From positions 105,065,904-105,129,903 of the forward strand of contig NC_057717.1 of NCBI RefSeq assembly GCF_004010195.1: a DNA stretch of 64,000 nucleotides. Direction: 5' to 3'. The notes under the pieces are model-generated. The model saw only the letters and a program-made list of their open reading frames with translations. It ran no database searches and was not told the DNA's origin. Positions 21,829 through 41,842 of this stretch are shown piece by piece. The stretch comes from Chiloscyllium plagiosum. Its lineage: Eukaryota. The translations under genes and the position numbers were made by a program. How positions within the stretch are numbered: position 1 is the stretch's first letter; every line of letters starts with the position of its first letter.

Positions 21829-22934
21829 TATTATCGGACAAGCCAAACAGAGAACAGCCAGGGAATTCCTAGAGGCATGGCACTCATCCACTGATTCAAT
21901 CAATAAGCACATTGACCGGCTACTGCAGCGGACAGCTGGAACTGACAACCGGAAGCAGCAGATAAATGCCGGAGGAAACATCACAGAAGCACTTCACAGG
22001 AGGCTCCCAAGCACTGAGGATGTCACCTAGACAGGGGATGAAACGTCTACAACACAAATTCCCAGCTCGGCGAACAGAACCACAACAGTAAAACATCATA
22101 CCATAGAGACTGATGGCATTAATGCGCATGTCTAGCATGCTGCATCCTAACATGTACATTGACCAGTATGAGCAGTATTACTGGCCTTGTACTGATGAAA
22201 GGATCTGTATTACTTAAAACATGACCAGATTTACTGGTGTCAAGATCAGTTCTATCTACTGGTCCCAAATTTGTTGTACCATCCTGGTAACTTCAACTTG
22301 CAGCAGCATTCAGGTAAGATCTCGACCCAAAAATGGTTCACGGGCTTTGATGGTACAGCAAAATGAATCAGCTAATTTCATGCTGTTTTTGTACAGAAAA
22401 TGAAAATAATCTAAACACTAAGCATAAAAAGCAACATTCTCATATTTCACAAAATGGTTAGGTAGAGATTGGATTGAGGTCAGCCAGAATATTAGTTCCC
22501 TGATTGGGGCTGTTAACCTGGTCCGATCAGGAAGCAGGACAGGTCGTCCTAGAGGTGGCCGGATGGTTTGTCAGGGTGGACTGAGAACTGGAAGGGGCAT
22601 GGTGTGGACCAAGAGTCAAAAGGGACGTAGGGGTGGGCTGCCTTAGAATGGTGGGAGGGACGGGGGATGGGGGGTGAGGGGATTGCTGGGTTTCTGGGGC
22701 TCTGTATTGTATGCACTGTTTTTTTATGTAATTGGACTGTCTTGTATATACAAAATGTCATTGTTACTCTTTTGTAATGATTGAAACTGGGATTTGAGGT
22801 TTGTCCTCATTTCCCTGAAAACAGGTTGAAAGGTAGGGTATGGGGCCTGGCTTTGCTGCTCCTTTCCCTTGTAAAATTGCTGTTTCTCTGAATACAGCTG
22901 TTAACATTAATTGTTTTATAAACTGTGAATTGTT

Positions 22935-24372
22935 TAGAACATAGAAACCTACAGCACAGAACAGGCCCTTTGGCCCACAATGTTGTGCCGAGGTTTAATC
23001 CTAATGTAAAATATAATAACCTACGCATCCCTCAACTCACTGATCTCCATGTGCATGTCCAGCAGTCACTTAAATGTCCCTAATGACTCTGCTTCCACCA
23101 CCACCGCTGGCAATGCATTCCATGCATTCACAACTCTCTGAGTAAAGAACCCTCTATACCTCGCTGACATCCCTTCTATACCTTTCCCTTAATATCTTAA
23201 AACTATGACCCCTCATACCCGTCAATCCTGCCCTGGGGAAAAGTCTCTGGCTATTGACTTTATCTATTCCTCTCACTGTCTTGTATACCTCGATCAGGTC
23301 TCCTCTCTTTCTCCTTCTCTCCAGAGAGAAAAGTCCAAGCTTTTTCAACCTTTCTTCATAAGGCAAGTCCTCCAGTCTAGGCAGCATCCTGGTAAACCTT
23401 CTTTGCACCCTCTCCAAAACCTCTGTATATTTTCTATAGTAGGGCGATCAGAACTGGACACAATATTCCATGTATGGTCTTGCCAGGGACTTGTAGAGCT
23501 GTAGCAAAGGTTCGCGGCTCTTAAACTCGATCCCCTTGTTAATGAAAGCCAAAACACCATATGCTTTCTTAACAACCCTATCCACTTGGGTGGCAACTTT
23601 GAGGGACCTATGTATTTGCACACCCAGATCCTTCTGTTCCTCCACACTTTCAAGAATCCTGTCTTTAATCCTATATTCAGCATTCGAGTTCGACTTTCCA
23701 AAATACATCGCCTCGCATTTATCCAGGTTGAACGCCATCCGCCACTTCTTAGCCCAGCTCTGCATCCTGTCTATGTCGCGCTCCAGCCTGCAATAGCCCT
23801 CGATACTATCGACACCACCTCCAACCTTTGTGTCATCTGCAAATTTACTAACCCACCCCTCAACTTCCTCATCCAAGTCATTTATAAGAACTACGAAGAG
23901 CAGAGGCCCAAGAACAGAGCCCTGCAGGTAGCCACTCACCACTGACCTCTAGGCAGAATACTTTCCATCTACAACCACTTTCTGCCTTCTGTCAGCCAGC
24001 CAATTATGAATCCAGATAGCCAAATCTCCCTGTATCCCATACTTTCTGACTTTATGAATGAGCCTACCATGGGGAACCTTATCAAATGCCTTGCTGAAGT
24101 GCATGTACACCACATCCACTGCTCGACCTTCGTCAACCTGTCTTGTCACCTTGTCGAATAACTCAATAAGATTTATTGAGGCATGACCTACCCCTCATAT
24201 AGCCATGCTGACTGCCTTTAATCATGCTGTGCTTTGCCAAATAGTTATAGATCCTATCCCTCAGAATTCTTTCCAAAACTTTGCTGACCATAGACGTAAG
24301 ACTGACTGGTCTGTAATTGCCAGGGATTTCCCTATTACCCTTCTTGAACAGAGGAACAACATTCACCTCCTT
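22935..24372 (-). mobile_element. Relatively young CR1 LINE (RT and 3' end) inside provirus 1
   Basis: PLFKKGNREIPGNYRPVSLTS, DVVYMHFSKAFDKVPH, QGSVLGPLLF, KFADDTK, ERVQRRFTRML. Confidence 0.92.
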
Positions 24373-24600
24373 CCAGTGCCATTTACGTTACATGCAAAAG
24401 TACAGGCATAAATCAGAAAGCTGGAAAGCAAAGGAATCATAAAACCAGTACAGTCTGGAGAAATTACAGCATCGGTTGTACCGATTGTGAAGCCCAACAG
24501 GTCAGTTCACCTTTGTGGGGATTTTAAACAATAATAAACCACTTTTTGCAGTTGGATAAGTACCCAATCCCTCGCACAGAGGACTTGCACACAAAGTTGG

Positions 24601-24602
<2 letters not shown>

Positions 24603-24632
<30 letters not shown>
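24603..24632. repeat. (GA)n microsatellite inside Gypsy RT
   Basis: Pure GA run. Confidence 0.9.
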
Positions 24633-24633
<1 letters not shown>

Positions 24634-27174
24634 CTGTCTTTCACAAAGCTGGACATGAGTCATGCGTACCTGAAATTGTGATTAGATGAGGATTCCCAGA
24701 GGTATGCTACAATTAATACCCAATGTAGAAGACTGCCTTTTGGGGTAGCATCAGCCTGTGCCATTTTCCAGCAGACAATGGAGAACACTTTACAAGGTCT
24801 AACCCAGGTCAACACTTATCTGGGTGATGCACTAATAACCAGGAAAACCAAGAAAGAACATTTAAAGAACTTGGACAAAGCATTTAAGCATTTCTCCATG
24901 GTGGGTGTTCATCCAGGCACTCTAAGTGACCTGCTTGGGCTAAGAGTCAACAAGACCAAGCTACACTTATTGGAAGATAAAATAAGGGCAATCAAAGGTG
25001 CCCCAGCTCCCATGTCTGTATGGGAGTTTAGGTATTCCCTTGAGTTGGTAAATTATTACGGAAAATACAAATGTAACCTGGCCTCCAGCCTGACACCCTT
25101 ACATCCAGTATCAATAAAGAGTCAGCCTTGAAAATGGTCTCATAGCCAAGATGCAACTTTTAGGGAAGCGAAGAAACAGCTATCATCCTCTAAGGTCACA
25201 CTACGATCCTAAGCAAGATGTGATGCTGTCATGCGATGCCTCCCCATATAGTATCGGGGTAGTGTTAGCTCACCAGCGCCATGGGAGAGGAACACCTGAT
25301 AGCGCATTCTTCCTAGACGTTGGCTAGTGCTGAACAAAAATACACCAAGATAGAGAAGGAAAGTTGGATGGTCATCTTTGGTGTGAATAAGTTCCACCAA
25401 CACCTTTATGGGCGTACATTTGTAATAGGAATGTACCACAATCGCCTGCTAGGTATACTTAAAGAGGACAAGGCTGTGCCACCCATAGCTTCAGGCCGAA
25501 TAAGTGGGCTCTTATTCTGAGTGCTGACAGTTACATGTTGGTACACTGTTCGGGAGGCCAAGTGGCAAATATGGATGCCTAGAGCCACCTCCCTCTGGCA
25601 GATACTCGATTGCTAGTACTGCCACTAGAAGAGCGTCCACTCTGCTTTTAAGCTTTCTGGACACCCTTTCTGTCACCACTGACGATATCAGACTGTAGAC
25701 ACAAAGCAATCCCGCCTTGACAAAACCAAAATAGCTGGCGGTGATTGGGGAAACAAAAGGGCCATCGCAACCAGAACTAATTCCTTTCTGCACCCATCGA
25801 GACCATAGAGGATGGCATATTATTATGGGGAGCAAGAGTAATTGTCCTGAACAAAGTTCACCGCCAGCTACTGGATGAACTCAACTCGGATTATCCAGAG
25901 GTTTCCAAAATGAAGATGTCAGCAAGAAGTTATGTCTGGTGGCCAGAATTGGATGCCAACATAGCTGCAATGGTGGGGCAGTGCCCAGAGTGCCAACAAA
26001 GACAAGAATTAATACCAGCAGCTCCCCCACATTCATGAGAATGGACTCTGTTACTCGTCGACTTCACCAATCCTTTCATGGGGTCTATATTCTTAGTCAT
26101 TGTGGAGTTCATTCAAAATGGTTGGATGTGCAAAGAGCTCATTTGTCAAACATGGGGATGACAACTGAACAGCTGCAAACATCTTTTGCAATCCACAGAC
26201 TCCCGGGGGTGTTGGTCACAAACAATGGGCCATCATTTACCAGCAAGGAATTAAATTATTTTCTAAAGTCAGTCAGCATTCAGCATGTAAGGACAACTCC
26301 ATATTATCCATTGTCCATACAATCTGGCGGAAAGAGCAGTCCAAACTTTGAAGGCAGACTTAAAGAAACAGCCTACAGCTTCACTTGATACCAAACTGGC
26401 CCAGTTTCTGTTTGATTATTGAAACACCCCTCATACCACGACAGGGGCTACTCCAGCAGAGTTGTTAATGGCGAGATGACTCCACCCCAGGTTAAACCCA
26501 ATCTTCCCAGACCTAGGGGAGAGGGTAAAACGGCATCAGGAATGCCAATGCTGAACACAAGAATCCACTAAACAAGAGAGACGGTTTACTTCAGGGGGCA
26601 AAGTTTTGGTGTTGAAACCATGGAAATGTTCCTGCATGGGTGAAAGGCATGGTCGACGTGAGAGCAGGTCTCATGACATACAGGTACAAGAGGTGATCCT
26701 GAACAAGCATATGGACGATATGAAATCTGCAACCTCCCAAACAGAGCAGGAGCAAAATATATCTAGCCCTTCAGAACATCAGGCAAGGCTGTCAGAACCC
26801 ATGGGCTCTCCCATGTGTCTAGCACCGAAGAAACTTCCAAGGACAGAATGAAAATGGCAGATGTCGCAGCCTCGACGCCATTATCACCTGAAGATTTATT
26901 TCTTCTGAAATGCTCTGGGCACAAGAGGCAGGCTACAGTCCAGTACGCCTCACCAGAATCCAAGGCAGAGTTAGGGGAACCAGACGTGGTGCGAAAACAC
27001 CCCACGAGAAGCTGCAGAAAAAACAAGGGACCTATGTACCAGGACTTAGAGGGGGATGGATGTAGTGATTGGAACAAGGTCAGCCAGGCGGACCTCATAG
27101 AATGAGTTCTCTGGTTAGGACTGTTAATCTGGTCCAATTAGGGAGTCCTGACTGACAGGTATAAACAGAAGTGT

Positions 27175-28134
27175 AAAAAATAAGCACTACCGCACTTAGG
27201 TGGTAGTGTGGGGGTTTAAAAAATATATAAACAGGAGATTGTCACTAAAAAAAAATAAACAGAAGTGTACACGGTCTCCACCAACACCCTGCAGTTGTTC
27301 AGGGAGAGGTGGGCACCGCAGGGAGTGGAGTGCATTATTTCCCCCTCCAACTCTATTTTGATTTAGTCCCTACCCTCCCCTTCACTGTTTGATCACACAG
27401 CACTGCCCTTTGATGTGAAGGGCAGTGTTTGTCACTGGCCACCCGGGTGTTTTCCTATCTTCCTGGTGGTGGAATTTGAATAAAGATTCGTGCACTTTGT
27501 GTCTTTCACTGTGTCTTACACCTGCACACACACACCATGGGTGCTGGGGAAGAAAATAAGCACTACCGCCGTTAGGTGGAAGTGTGGGGGTTATAAGAGA
27601 AAAAAAAATAAACAGAAGTGTACCCGGTCTCCACCAACACCCTGGAGTTGTTCAGGGAGAGGTGGGCGCCGCGGGGAGTGGAGTGCAGTATTTCCCCCTC
27701 CAACTCTATTTTGATTTAATCCCTGCCCTCCCCTTCACTGTTTGATTACACAGTGGGGGTAAACAAAAAATACAAGAGTGTCAGAGTTTCTGCTCACTCT
27801 AAAAAAAAGAAAAAAAAAGTAAACAGAAGTGTCCCTCCCCTTCACTATTTGATCACACTGCATTGCCCTTTGATGTGAAGGGCACTGCTGGTCACTGGCC
27901 ACTCGGGTGTTCCTTTCTTCCTGGTGGTGGAAATTGTATAAAGATTCATACACCTTGTGTCTCTCACTGTGTCTCATACCTGCACACACACAACATGGGT
28001 GCTGGGGAAATAATAAGCACTACCACAGGTAGGTGGTAGTGTGGGGGTAAACAAAAAAAACAAGAGTGTCAGAGTTTCTGCTCACTCTGACAGGCTATAG
28101 CGTGGGGGAAAAGGAGAAAAGAAAAAGAAAAAAG
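27175..28134 (+). mobile_element. Stacked 5'-truncated Tx1-like non-LTR retrotransposon 3' ends inside the Gypsy 3' LTR
   Basis: ORF end TVSTNTLQLFRERWAPQGVECIISPSNSILI* (27271-27366) resembles Tx1-clade ORF2 C-termini (recalled similarity); AATAAA, terminal hairpin, GGGGG and poly(A); units separated by TAAACAGAAGTGT. Confidence 0.75.
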
Positions 28135-28629
28135 AACAGGAAAGTCAGGGGTTCTGTTCACTCTAGTAGTTAGCTCTGAACTAGCTGGTAATGTACTATG
28201 CACATGTAACTAAACAGTGACTTGGTGATGGGATACCGGCCTTTCAGGTTACAGCACAGGAGCCATTGGCTGGTCATGTTGACTCCCTGGTAGAACTATT
28301 TATTTATAATTCCATTCCTCCCTACCTTCTTGAATCACTTCACATTCTTCCTTTCCAGAAAAGATTCCAATTCTCTTCTGAATGTCTTTACTATACTCTG
28401 GGATAGCGCATTCCAGACCTTAACCACATGTTACATGAAAACTATTTACCTCATGTCACCTTTGCTTCTTTGCCAATTACTTTAAATCTGTGAGTGTAGT
28501 TGTGGTCCAGAGTCATACAGCACAGAAACACACCCATCAGTCCAATTTGTCCAAGCCAACCAGACATCCTAATCTAACCTTGCACCTTATACCAATATTA
28601 ACAGTTTATTTCTGTTTTCCTGGAGTATT

Positions 28630-38245: not shown

Positions 38246-41200
38246 AGTTTCTAAAGTCTACAGTGCAGGTGTGACACATGCTAAAGGTCTTAAATAGAAT
38301 TTATGATCCATAAATGTGATATTTGTCACAAACAGTCCATGCTGGCATTCATAATCTATCTGAGCTTCCTCATGCCTTTCCTCAGCTCAACCCATCAGCA
38401 TAACCTTTTGTTATTTGTACCTCATTTAGTTTCCCTTTAAATTCAGCTATGCGATTTGTTTAGCCATTCTGTAATAACAGAGTGCTACATTCTCATCACT
38501 CTTTAGTTAAAAGCACCACTGAATTTCCTTTGGATTTAATGGTAACAAAATGCCATCAATACAAGATAGACATGTTCCTCCTCACAAGTGGAAACATTCG
38601 CTGGAAAGCCACTCCATCAAAACATTTGGTATTTTTTAATTTCTATTAGGTCATCCCTCAGCCTTCTTATTCAACAAAAAATTTAATCTGTTCACACTTT
38701 CTTAATATACATACAAATGCATTTCTAATACTGTCTTTATAAATCCTTTTCTGCACCCTCTGTAGCACTGCTATACTCTTTTCTTAATGCGGCAACAAAT
38801 TCAAAATTCTATCCATCTAAAGTGGCACAGACATACCATCCCCCTTCATTAATCACACTCCAACTTGAAATGAATTAAGTGCTCAGCTCTTTCTGTTAGA
38901 GAAACCTTCTGGAGTCTTGATGACTATATGCAGTCTATTATGTCCTGAATGTTGGAAAAGTCAGCAATTGTAGAAACTTCCACAGAGCACTCACTTCAAA
39001 TGCTGGTGACTATGGGAAAGACAACTGTCCTATCTACAAGGCATGAAGAGAGATCATATTTATTTCTTAATCTGTATTCCCTTGTTTAATTTTTAAAATT
39101 GACTCTTGCTGAATTTAATGGTTGATATTGAATGTAGCATGGGCTAGTTGGGTGCTTCTAGAAACATCCAGTAGTCACCTAAACAAAAGCTGACTCATAG
39201 TCGGTCAGGAATTTCCAGTCTCCCATTTGTCTGAACATTGTCTACACTTCTCATTTGCAGTAAAGTCCATACAATGTGTCTATGCCAGCCAATTCTGAAA
39301 GAAGGAAATCACTGAAACTCATTTTAGCTGAAGGTCTCACAGTTGTCTCATATGACACACTGGTTTTGACAAAAAACATAAAAATCACCTCAATAAGTTG
39401 AATTGACCCATCCAAGAACCTTGCCAGGTGACTGAATCTTCAGGTTTTTGAATAAACTTCAAGAGCACAGCTCTGAACTATGTTGGCAGAATGCTATTTA
39501 TTTCCCGTTTGCTTAGAAAGTGAATTAATCTCCAGTTTATAAGAATCAAAACAGTATATCTTCAACTGCATCTGAGCTCCTACAAAATGGAATTCTGCAA
39601 GAGCCTTCACTGGACATTGAATTACGGAACTCTGATTCGAATGCATTAATACCGGTGTGTTTTGTTTTAAGCTATTTGAATTCAAACTTCTTTTCTTTCT
39701 TCTTCCATGAGTGTGTGTGCACGCGCGTCTGTCTGTCTGATTGATGGAAGTGGAAGCCAGGTGAAAAGGTAAGGAGCATGTGGCCACACCAATACCCCAT
39801 CCACCCCTTCCCACAAAAACCCTCTGCTCGAAGTGTCTCAGAGCCTGCAAAACCTGCATCAGTTTGTACAGCCACCTACAGTCTCACACTGAGAGTGGAA
39901 GAGTGTCATCCTTATCTGCGGGGGACCGCCAATGATGATGATCTTATGGAAATGTATCCCCTGAATGAATGCTTGATTAAACCATTCTTTTTTTTGTGAA
40001 CTCTAAGCATGGCTTATTGTGAGTATTTAAAAAAAATTAGATTTCACAGAACGTTTGAGGCAAATGCACCATGTCTCTACTAAAAGGGAAACAAAATAAA
40101 ATAATTTAAAACTATATCTGTCATGGTGAAAAGGAAAAGAATTTAAATTTGCCTCCGTGACATTGATCTTGTCTGTGACATGATACACTAGTTAGCCCTG
40201 GCTATTGATGGCCTGCCTTATACTGTAATTTGCCTAAAGTCAAGAAAACCTGAATGGTAGCTCCTGTAATAAACTAGCAGAAGCCTGATAATAGACACTG
40301 GAAAAATAAGACCACCAAGTGAGTGGCCCTGCGGCAGAAGGCTGAATAACAGGACAGTTGCATCGGCATTGTCACTGGAGTACCAATCTAGATGCCTGCA
40401 CTAATGATTAACAAGGACCTATCCTTGACCCCTTATTTCTCTGGCTAAACCTTTCTGTCACTCTTCCTCTCTCTCCTCCTTTAAGATGCTCTGTTAAGCT
40501 ATCTCACTACCAAGTCTTTACTCACTTGTTCAAATTACCTAATTTCTTTTTGTGGTATAAATTCTGTTTGATAATGCCCTATGAATTGGACCTTTTAACA
40601 CCTTAAGGTTCAAATCAAATGGCAAGCTGTTGAGGCTGTAGATCTTGAGACATGAGTTCAAATCTCAGAATTGCAGCTCAGTTAATTAAATAATTTTAGA
40701 ATAAAAAGCTAGTAATTACAATGGTTCTGAAACTGTTGGATGGACATACACACCTCTCTTGTTCACAAAATATTCCAGTGGGAAGGAGTTCTGTGTCCTT
40801 ATCCACTTTAGCCAAGTGTGACTTTAAACCCATTCCCATAGAAAGTTTGTTGACTCTACTGCTCTAGCCAGCCAACTATTCATTTTCTTCACAAGAGAAA
40901 CCGTAATCCACATCAACTGCAAAGGTTCAAGAAGAAAACTCAGCACTATCTCTTCAAGGGGTATAAATGACACTCATATCCGATGAATGAATTTTTAAAA
41001 CCTTTCACTATAAGAATTTATCCAACAGAATGGAAAATTGCCCAGGTATGACCTATCCGCAAAATGTAGGACAAATTCAATCCACCCAATTAGTGTCCCA
41101 TCATGTATGCTCAATTGTCAGTAAGTGATAAAAGGTGGTATCAACAAGCGCCTACTCCCAAATAACATGTTACTGATGTTGTTTGGCATCTGCCAGGATA

Positions 41201-41635: not shown

Positions 41636-41842
41636 GAGAATGTGAGGACTGCAGATGCTGGAGATCAGAGTCGAGAGTATGGTGCTGGAAAAGCACAGCA
41701 GGTCAGGCAGCATCTGAGGAGCAAGAGATGCCTGATGAAGGGCCTATGCCTGAAACATTGATTATCCTGCTCTTCGGATGCTGCATGACCTGCTGTGCTT
41801 TTCCAGCACCACACTCTTGACTCCCAACCAATTTAGTCGCCT
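41636..41842. mobile_element. Fold-back Penelope-derived insertion with hammerhead core
   Basis: 19-bp TSD CTCCCA(A/C)CCATTTTAATAG (41617-41635, 41843-41861); inverted arms; CTGATGA AGGGC CTAT GCCT GAAACATT at 41732. Confidence 0.85.

What the first reader, a model, noticed from the sequence alone, without database searches (positions are those of the whole stretch)
27770..28096. Apparent 3' transductions of foreign LTR sequence imply the donor copies sat at the same LTR site
Seen: two inserts end GGGGGTAAACAAAAAA and continue with ACAAGAGTGTCAGAGTTTCTGCTCACTCT (27772-27800, ~28060-28088), and the first is followed by a second poly(A). This is homologous to the LTR sequence just downstream of the target but differs from the local copy (ACAGGAAAGTCAGGGGTTCTGTTCACTCT at 28136). 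Inference: read-through transcripts from a source element in another LTR copy carried its flank along, which would be independent evidence of target specificity and a tag for the master locus.
Basis: partly seen in the sequence, partly recalled or inferred. Interest (0 to 1): 0.75.

Follow-up and report, generated by a model that had tools for sequence, protein, structure and literature searches.

The report
Read-through tags in stacked LINE ends
Several short tail ends of a jumping gene are stacked at one spot of an old retrotransposon end-repeat, and three carry a snippet of a different copy of that end-repeat, most likely picked up by read-through at their source; this is a known process seen in an unusual setting, and the source copy was not found.

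Summary
The sequence is as described. Four 5'-truncated, poly(A)-tailed LINE ends sit at the TATA box of an old Gypsy-type 3' LTR, each preceded by an exact copy of a 13-bp target.

The 29-nt tag occurs twice, identical. It differs from the local LTR at 6 of 29 bases and, where it runs longer, closes a perfect 9-bp stem that both comparable LTRs in the window lack. It is therefore foreign LTR sequence, not a drifted local duplicate.

A contig of a related species shows another double-tailed junction. Short 3' transduction is the best reading (0.62).

Two claims need trimming. Both tag copies share one odd tail, so they record one donor junction, not two. No donor was found (no genome held), and the unit-4 junction lies on an unbroken single-copy-depth contig, which argues against a prolific master. 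Unit 4 has no poly(A) directly after its tag, and no listed contig confirmed unit 3's tag.

3' transduction and LTR-targeting Tx1 LINEs are both in print. The scan noted what appears to be the same targeting at five other loci of this genome (unchecked notes).

The parts
24376..27047 (+). Decayed internal region of a Gypsy-type LTR retrotransposon (RT before integrase; many stops and frameshifts)
   Evidence: Pfam RVT_1 E 1.6e-6 at 24682-25128 and rve E 4e-4 at 25879-26385, both under the curated cut-offs; about 70% alike to a second copy on the minus strand
27048..27060 (+). Polypurine tract before the 3' LTR
   Evidence: sequence
27061..27174 (+). Left part of the 3' LTR (TG start), ending in the TATA box and target copy 1 (27162-27174)
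   Evidence: 79-80% to the empty LTR at 51770-51658; target copy exact
27175..27223 (+). Unit 1: LINE 3' terminal hairpin plus first A-run
   Evidence: 35 of 38 to unit 2; hairpin z -4.1
27224..27255 (+).
   Evidence: aligns to the TATA/target region with a G at the variable site and a 2-nt insertion; lies between two exact target copies
27256..27268 (+). Target copy 2 (TSD)
   Evidence: exact
27269..27608 (+). Unit 2: last 31 codons of an ORF, 3' UTR with two hairpins, A-rich tail; no tag
   Evidence: the family continues 5' of this point (loose ends at 27272 and 27625)
27609..27621 (+). Target copy 3 (TSD)
   Evidence: exact
27622..27771 (+). Unit 3 body: same 5' start as unit 2, 184-nt internal deletion between the outer ends of two hairpins, first A-run
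   Evidence: 124 of 132 to unit 2; breaks at unit-2 positions 27400 and 27584, helices 27400-27428 and 27560-27585 at p>0.8
27772..27819 (+). Unit 3 foreign LTR tag (27772-27800) plus second poly(A) (27801-27819)
   Evidence: not spanned by any listed contig
27820..27832 (+). Target copy 4 (TSD)
   Evidence: exact
27833..28059 (+). Unit 4: 3' UTR fragment plus first A-run
   Evidence: 87-89% to unit 2
28060..28093 (+). Unit 4 foreign LTR tag, holding a perfect 9-bp stem (28067-28075 with 28084-28092); no poly(A) directly behind
   Evidence: spanned by an X1 contig with 0 differences at depth 10
28094..28134 (+). Very short element-end-like piece (to 28108) and G-interrupted A-rich tail (28109-28134)
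   Evidence: 11 of 16 to the end of unit 4; parse uncertain
28135..28253 (+). Mismatched last target copy (28135-28145, 8 of 11 to the others) and right part of the LTR (CA end)
   Evidence: 68% to the empty LTR; orthologous with its flank in organism B (piece 24)

Best explanation
A very abundant poly(A)-tailed LINE family inserts by target-primed reverse transcription just at the TATA box of this LTR family. Each insertion rebuilds the 13-bp target, so ends stack up (the structure is shown; the enzyme and the order of insertion are inferred). Some templates were read-through RNAs from copies sitting at the same site in other LTRs. They ran through their own A-tail, 20-35 nt into the donor LTR, and were copied with that snippet (foreign origin shown; RNA route inferred from second tails flanked by exact target copies in units 1 and 3). 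Units 3 and 4 trace to one donor junction, unit 1 to another. Unit 3 was made from an RNA bearing that junction, with a reverse-transcriptase jump across two hairpins; whether the RNA came from the distant donor or from this array is open. Unit 4 has no second tail at its tag and may have primed by pairing of its RNA end with the CTGACAG upstream of the TATA box (speculative). The short tag length may come from a poly(A) signal formed where the A-tail meets the TAAA of the target (speculative).
For: Four exact target copies against bodies 6-13% apart. Tag differs from the local LTR at 6 of 29 bases, and at 9 of 33 to the end of the stem. Stem 9 of 9 Watson-Crick in the tag, 3 of 9 locally, 2 of 9 in the empty LTR; 0 of 2,000,000 random drifts from the local copy rebuilt it. 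The local and empty LTRs agree with each other against the tag at positions 14, 16 and 22. Tail-tag-tail-TSD order in units 1 and 3. In organism B, 4 of the 12 shown rows of table 5c (605 in all) show the same architecture at other loci: one double tail with an LTR-like piece, two tail + target-like + next truncated copy, and one LTR with the tag's ACAAGAGT start and an insert at the site. Unit 3's deletion ends within 1 nt of helix ends on both sides. Signal-like hexamers lie 15 and 19 nt (unit 1) and 26 nt (unit 3) before the second tails, and AATAAA forms at 2 of 4 target junctions. 3' transduction is described for L1 (PMC3812793, passages) and for site-specific R7Ag and R1Bm (PMC7265360, passage).
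Against: No donor found (no genome; five collection scans blank). Unit 4 lacks a poly(A) at the tag end and its right target copy mismatches at 3 of 11. The unit-4 junction lies on an unbroken contig at single-copy depth (10, as its flanks), so no large family of near-identical daughters is evident (inference). In RNA run X21 depth falls from 140 at the element end to 2.6 over the tag, and 109 reads turn to poly(A) at 28060, so read-through is not common there; poly(A) capture also primes on inner A-runs, which weakens this test. Unit 3's tag is unconfirmed by contigs. A-rich tails contain signal-like hexamers by chance. Look-alike transductions of Alu failed manual checks (10.1101/2024.04.29.591526, passages).
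Confidence: 0.62

Rival explanations
1. The tag is foreign but arrived as DNA: ectopic gene conversion or break repair copied an element end plus flank from an insert in another LTR, or the Gypsy element switched templates between two LTR variants during its own replication.
For: Unit 4 has no new tail at the tag, and the array's right end mismatches the other target copies at 3 of 11. The family and the LTR are both very abundant (table 2), so homologous templates are plentiful.
Against: Does not explain tail-tag-tail followed by an exact target copy in units 1 and 3, or the double-tailed junction in organism B.
Confidence: 0.14
2. One foreign import (unit 4); unit 3 is a DNA-level local chimera of unit 2's 5' part and unit 4's end, made by slippage or unequal exchange inside the array.
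For: Unit 3 starts at the same base as unit 2 (124 of 132 alike) and shares 47 of 48 nt with unit 4's end; the two divergences are compatible (Fisher p 0.45). Two hits from one rare donor at one site are unlikely, and the junction looks single-copy.
Against: Needs two non-homologous joints and a new 19-nt tail placed exactly before an exact target copy. The breaks follow RNA helix ends. The shared 5' start has another cause: the target end resembles the family bases just upstream (loose-end consensus; compared by eye).
Confidence: 0.15
3. The tag is a local duplication of this LTR that has since diverged.
For: 23 of 29 identity to the local copy. If the duplicate were old (8-10% pairwise), 5-6 mismatches would not be extreme (P 0.03-0.17).
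Against: All four TSDs and both tags are identical within their sets. The tag has a perfect stem that the local copy and the empty LTR lack, and those two agree against the tag. Rewriting one arm of the local copy from the other does not give the tag (by inspection).
Confidence: 0.04
4. Unit 3's tag and second tail are an assembly error in a repeat-dense stretch.
For: Depth 0 in bin 27766-27816 in runs X1 and X9; no listed piece spans the whole stretch.
Against: That bin is partly masked and the tool warns that a hole proves nothing. The two tag regions differ at one base and have different neighbours on both sides. The unit-4 junction is confirmed exactly.
Confidence: 0.05

Closest known systems
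3' transduction by L1 and SVA (PMC3812793, passages; 10.1101/2021.07.12.451456, passages)
   Same: Element end, first A-tail, donor flank, second poly(A), TSD; caused by a weak poly(A) signal. Truncated copies can be donors (stated in the preprint).
   Different: Tags here are only about 20-35 nt and are the target sequence itself, because donor and recipient sit at the same site of one LTR family. No donor was validated.
Tx1-clade LINEs that target other transposons: Tx1L in Tx1D; Tx1-Mar and SINEU-3 in Mariner-N4_AMi; Tx1-8_Crp and Tx1-4_AMi in LTR retrotransposons (PMC4494074, passages)
   Same: One site in a repeat, poly(A) tails, tandem copies sandwiching a TSD through sequential insertion.
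   Different: The passages I read mention only 5' transduction, not target-derived 3' tags; the paper's supplements could not be read. Tx1 membership of this family was not shown here.
Read-through of target sequence in site-specific R1Bm, R7Ag, R2Ol, SART1Bm (PMC7265360; PMC6530143; passages)
   Same: Transcripts run into downstream target sequence; 3' transduction seen for R7Ag and R1Bm; RNA ends can pair with the target to prime.
   Different: Those are assay results for elements in rDNA or telomeres, where target copies are near-identical and a tag would be hard to see. Here diverged LTR copies make the donor visible.

Membership tests
3' transduction | Non-element sequence between the element's first A-tail and a second poly(A) | tested here: met
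   Met in units 1 and 3; not met directly in unit 4, where the next A-rich tail is 20 nt further on
3' transduction | One TSD pair encloses element plus extra sequence | tested here: met
   Exact 13-bp copies flank units 1 and 3; unit 4's right copy matches only 8 of 11
3' transduction | Extra sequence is not local | tested here: met
   6 of 29 mismatches; perfect stem absent locally
3' transduction | Source element found with the same flank continuing downstream | not testable with these tools
   No genome; collection scans blank; only an 8-nt variant match at another locus
3' transduction | Poly(A) signal shortly before the second tail | tested here: inconclusive
   Variant hexamers only, 15-26 nt upstream, in A-rich context
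3' transduction | Read-through RNA exists | tested here: inconclusive
   Depth 2.6 over the tag against 140 before it in X21; about 2% of the run was read, with poly(A) capture
Non-LTR retrotransposon (TPRT product) | 5' truncation, poly(A) tail, TSD | tested here: met
   the family extends 5' of the units and RNA reads end in poly(A) at 27612 and 28060
Tx1 clade | APE endonuclease and RT that group with Tx1L | not testable with these tools
   Only 31 C-terminal codons are in the window. No Pfam family, 4 spurious repeat-protein hits, Atlas best score 0.75. The likeness to Tx1 ORF2 ends is recalled; earlier scan notes say Tx1 (unchecked)
Target-specific LINE | More than 20% of family flanks in one repeat (criterion of PMC4494074) | tested here: inconclusive
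   Four of four units at one site here, and 4 of 12 shown rows at other loci; no unbiased count was possible
Ty3/Gypsy LTR host | RT before integrase, PPT, TG...CA LTR | tested here: met
   domain scores under the Pfam cut-offs; BEL-type not excluded

The most novel reading that the evidence does not exclude
The target does three jobs for this LINE. Its TATA box transcribes any copy, even a truncated one, that lands in sense just behind it. Its first bases complete a poly(A) signal with the element's A-tail, so transcripts end 15-30 nt inside the LTR. The resulting target-matching RNA end helps prime the next insertion. Truncated copies would then be self-made donors, targeting would be partly RNA-guided, and every read-through daughter would carry a natural barcode of its parent LTR, giving a donor-to-daughter genealogy across the genome.
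Probability: 0.15. Interest if true: 0.62.

Novelty: new variant of a known kind. Interest (0 to 1): 0.33.

Why it matters
If the tags are transductions, a vertebrate target-specific LINE leaves a readable record of which LTR copy its template came from. Such a record is hard to see for elements in near-identical targets such as rDNA or telomeres. That would allow source copies to be mapped in a very large family and would test whether read-through RNA contributes to targeting in nature. As it stands this is one locus that combines two known behaviours, with no donor in hand.

Tried and rejected
Whole-genome search: no genome held.

Pattern scans for the element end, its 3' UTR or the LTR found 0 loci in viral, metagenome and prokaryote genome collections; these collections are not expected to hold this animal.

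Classifying the 31-residue ORF end failed: 4 hits, all summed matches to repetitive unrelated proteins; Atlas no score above 0.75. A word-based homologue search could not be run on so short a peptide, so the clade stays open.

Rfam: 8 matches, all far under gathering scores. No listed holder was on record as RNA. Earlier scan notes by sequence: nothing.

An ungapped 21 of 29 match near 38531 is not an LTR. No long-range pairing joins the two breaks of unit 3's deletion. The bacterial promoter scan is irrelevant here except that it exposed the stem in the tag.

Considered and rejected: the units as tandem DNA duplicates (bodies differ 6-13% while targets are identical); a SINE with a natural 5' end at 27269 (the family continues upstream).

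The R1Bm paper (PMC1074724) is not held; I saw it only as cited in PMC7265360 and PMC6530143. Supplements of PMC4494074 could not be read and may show junctions like these. Four searches for natural 3' transduction in Tx1 or site-specific LINEs listed no paper on it; the library lacks most subscription papers and Repbase Reports.

Full report
Setting. The window is repeat-rich animal DNA. Its repeats look like those of sharks (recalled; earlier scan notes say the same). The finding lies in the 3' LTR (27061-28253) of a decayed Gypsy-type element: RT and integrase remnants in that order (both under Pfam cut-offs), a polypurine tract, and TG and CA ends. A second copy of the family on the minus strand has an uninterrupted LTR at 51770-51533, in which the TATA box runs straight into CAGGGGTTCTGTTCAC. 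That defines the empty site.

Anatomy. The 13-mer TAAACAGAAGTGT occurs exactly four times (27162, 27256, 27609, 27820) and nowhere else in the window at one edit. Behind each copy sits a 5'-truncated 3' end of one family. The bodies differ by 6% (units 2 and 3) to 13% (units 2 and 4) while the targets are identical, which fits separate insertions of diverged templates better than tandem duplication. The family is very abundant in organisms A, B and C (summed depth up to about a million against about 10-30 on unique flank; the tool warns this is no copy number). It continues 5' of units 2 and 3, and is transcribed mainly from one strand with poly(A) at its end. Units 2 and 3 hold the last 31 codons of an ORF, which no search could classify. 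Its likeness to Tx1 ORF2 ends is recalled only.

The observation. Unit 3's tag is followed by a 19-nt tail and an exact target copy. Unit 4's tag runs on to about 28093 and is followed by a 15-nt element-end-like piece, an A-rich tail and a target copy that matches at only 8 of 11. A contig of run X1 spans 27995-28223 with no difference; none of the 24 listed pieces (of over 61,000) spans unit 3's tag, whose bin is partly masked.

Is the tag foreign? Yes, on three grounds. First, the clock: four targets and two tags are each identical within their sets, while tag and local copy differ at 6 of 29. That is unlikely at 4-6% pairwise divergence (P 0.001-0.009), though not at 10% (P 0.07). Second, structure: the unit-4 tag closes a 9 of 9 Watson-Crick stem, against 3 of 9 locally and 2 of 9 in the empty LTR, and 0 of 2,000,000 random drifts from the local copy rebuilt it. 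The local and empty LTRs agree with each other against the tag at positions 14, 16 and 22, so the local state looks like a subfamily state, not private decay. Third, an organism-B contig joins the LTR TATA box, the tag's ACAAGAGT start and a truncated copy of the element (row 27167>27328).

Did it come by RNA? For units 1 and 3 the order tail-tag-tail-exact TSD is the signature of 3' transduction (PMC3812793 and 10.1101/2021.07.12.451456, passages). One organism-B row shows the same double tail at another locus (27218>27867), and two show tail, target-like sequence and a next truncated copy (27222>27406, 27990>27722). These are 4 rows, with the one above, of the 12 shown out of 605, chosen by the tool for support and not a sample. 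Unit 3 also lacks 184 nt, with both breaks within one base of the outer ends of two strong helices, as a polymerase jump on a folded single strand would give. I noticed this after the fact, and no pairing joins the breaks. Signal-like hexamers lie 15-26 nt before the second tails, and the A-tail plus the target's TAAA spells AATAAA at 2 of 4 junctions. This suggests why tags are short, but A-rich sequence makes such words cheaply. A TSD beginning inside an AATAAA is noted for one dog SINE (PMC11699766, passages).

Units 3 and 4 share the same odd tail (AAAC then A6-7) as well as the tag, 47 of 48 nt: they are one donor junction seen twice. The unit-4 junction sits on an unbroken contig at the depth of unique flank (10.0 against 9.2 and 10.2), so many near-identical daughters are unlikely (inference). 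That makes two independent hits from a dominant master doubtful, and keeps open that unit 3's end was recopied from this array or made in the same burst. In RNA run X21 (2,422 reads laid, about 2% of the run read) depth drops from 140 to 2.6 on entering the tag and 109 reads turn to poly(A) at 28060; poly(A) capture would hide read-through, so this is weak. Unit 4 has no tail at its tag. Its last bases echo the sequence upstream of the TATA box (27152-27163 against 28087-28099, one base inserted), which allows a reading as a longer TSD primed by pairing, as reported for R2Ol, SART1Bm and R1Bm (PMC6530143, PMC7265360, passages), but the evidence is thin. A donor also need not be a master: truncated elements can transduce, and every unit here lies in sense just behind an LTR TATA box.

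Comparison with what is known. Tx1-clade LINEs that target other transposons, including two that prefer LTR retrotransposons, and tandem copies sandwiching a TSD, are described (PMC4494074, passages; supplements not readable). 3' transduction is described for L1 and SVA and, in assays, for R7Ag and R1Bm. Four searches listed no paper on natural target-derived 3' tags in a vertebrate site-specific LINE; the library is incomplete. Earlier notes of this scan report what appears to be the same TATA-box targeting at five other loci of this genome (unchecked, and I could not confirm that the family is the same).

Verdict. Observation confirmed. Foreign origin well supported; 3' transduction likely (0.62); donor not found; 'master tag' unsupported. 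It works like L1 3' transduction; membership in the Tx1 clade was not shown here. A new variant of known behaviour, interest 0.33. The bolder reading, that the target supplies promoter, poly(A) signal and priming sequence, has probability about 0.15.

Noticed in passing
window 27224-27255: A third LTR-like tag of a different variant, with its own second A-run, in unit 1.
   Followed up: yes
window 27753 (unit 3), against 27400 and 27584: A 184-nt internal deletion whose breaks fall at the outer ends of the two strongest 3' UTR hairpins.
   Followed up: partly
window 28067-28092: Perfect 9-bp stem in the foreign LTR variant just downstream of the TATA box; broken in both comparable LTRs of the window.
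   Followed up: partly
window 27269 and 27622: Units 2 and 3 start at the same base; the target's last bases resemble the family sequence just upstream, an imperfect microhomology hot spot.
   Followed up: partly
window 22462-22950: A left-half LTR of the same family breaks off at 22534 and is followed by non-LTR sequence with a T-rich stretch that may be another LINE's 3' end; unclassified.
   Followed up: no
window 51770-47425 (minus strand): Second decayed Gypsy copy; neither LTR carries the inserted family.
   Followed up: partly
window 27577, run X21: 58 RNA reads leave the terminal hairpin with a different 3' end and poly(A), suggesting an expressed sister family.
   Followed up: no
window 28145-28447 and 26950-27102, run X9: The LTR's right part with unique flank is orthologous in organism B (11 substitutions and 4 gaps in 303 nt), so the Gypsy insertion predates the split; whether the array is there too is unknown.
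   Followed up: partly
window 41668-41823: Inverted pair of 59-nt arms, 90% complementary and 38 nt apart, from an abundant repeat family.
   Followed up: no
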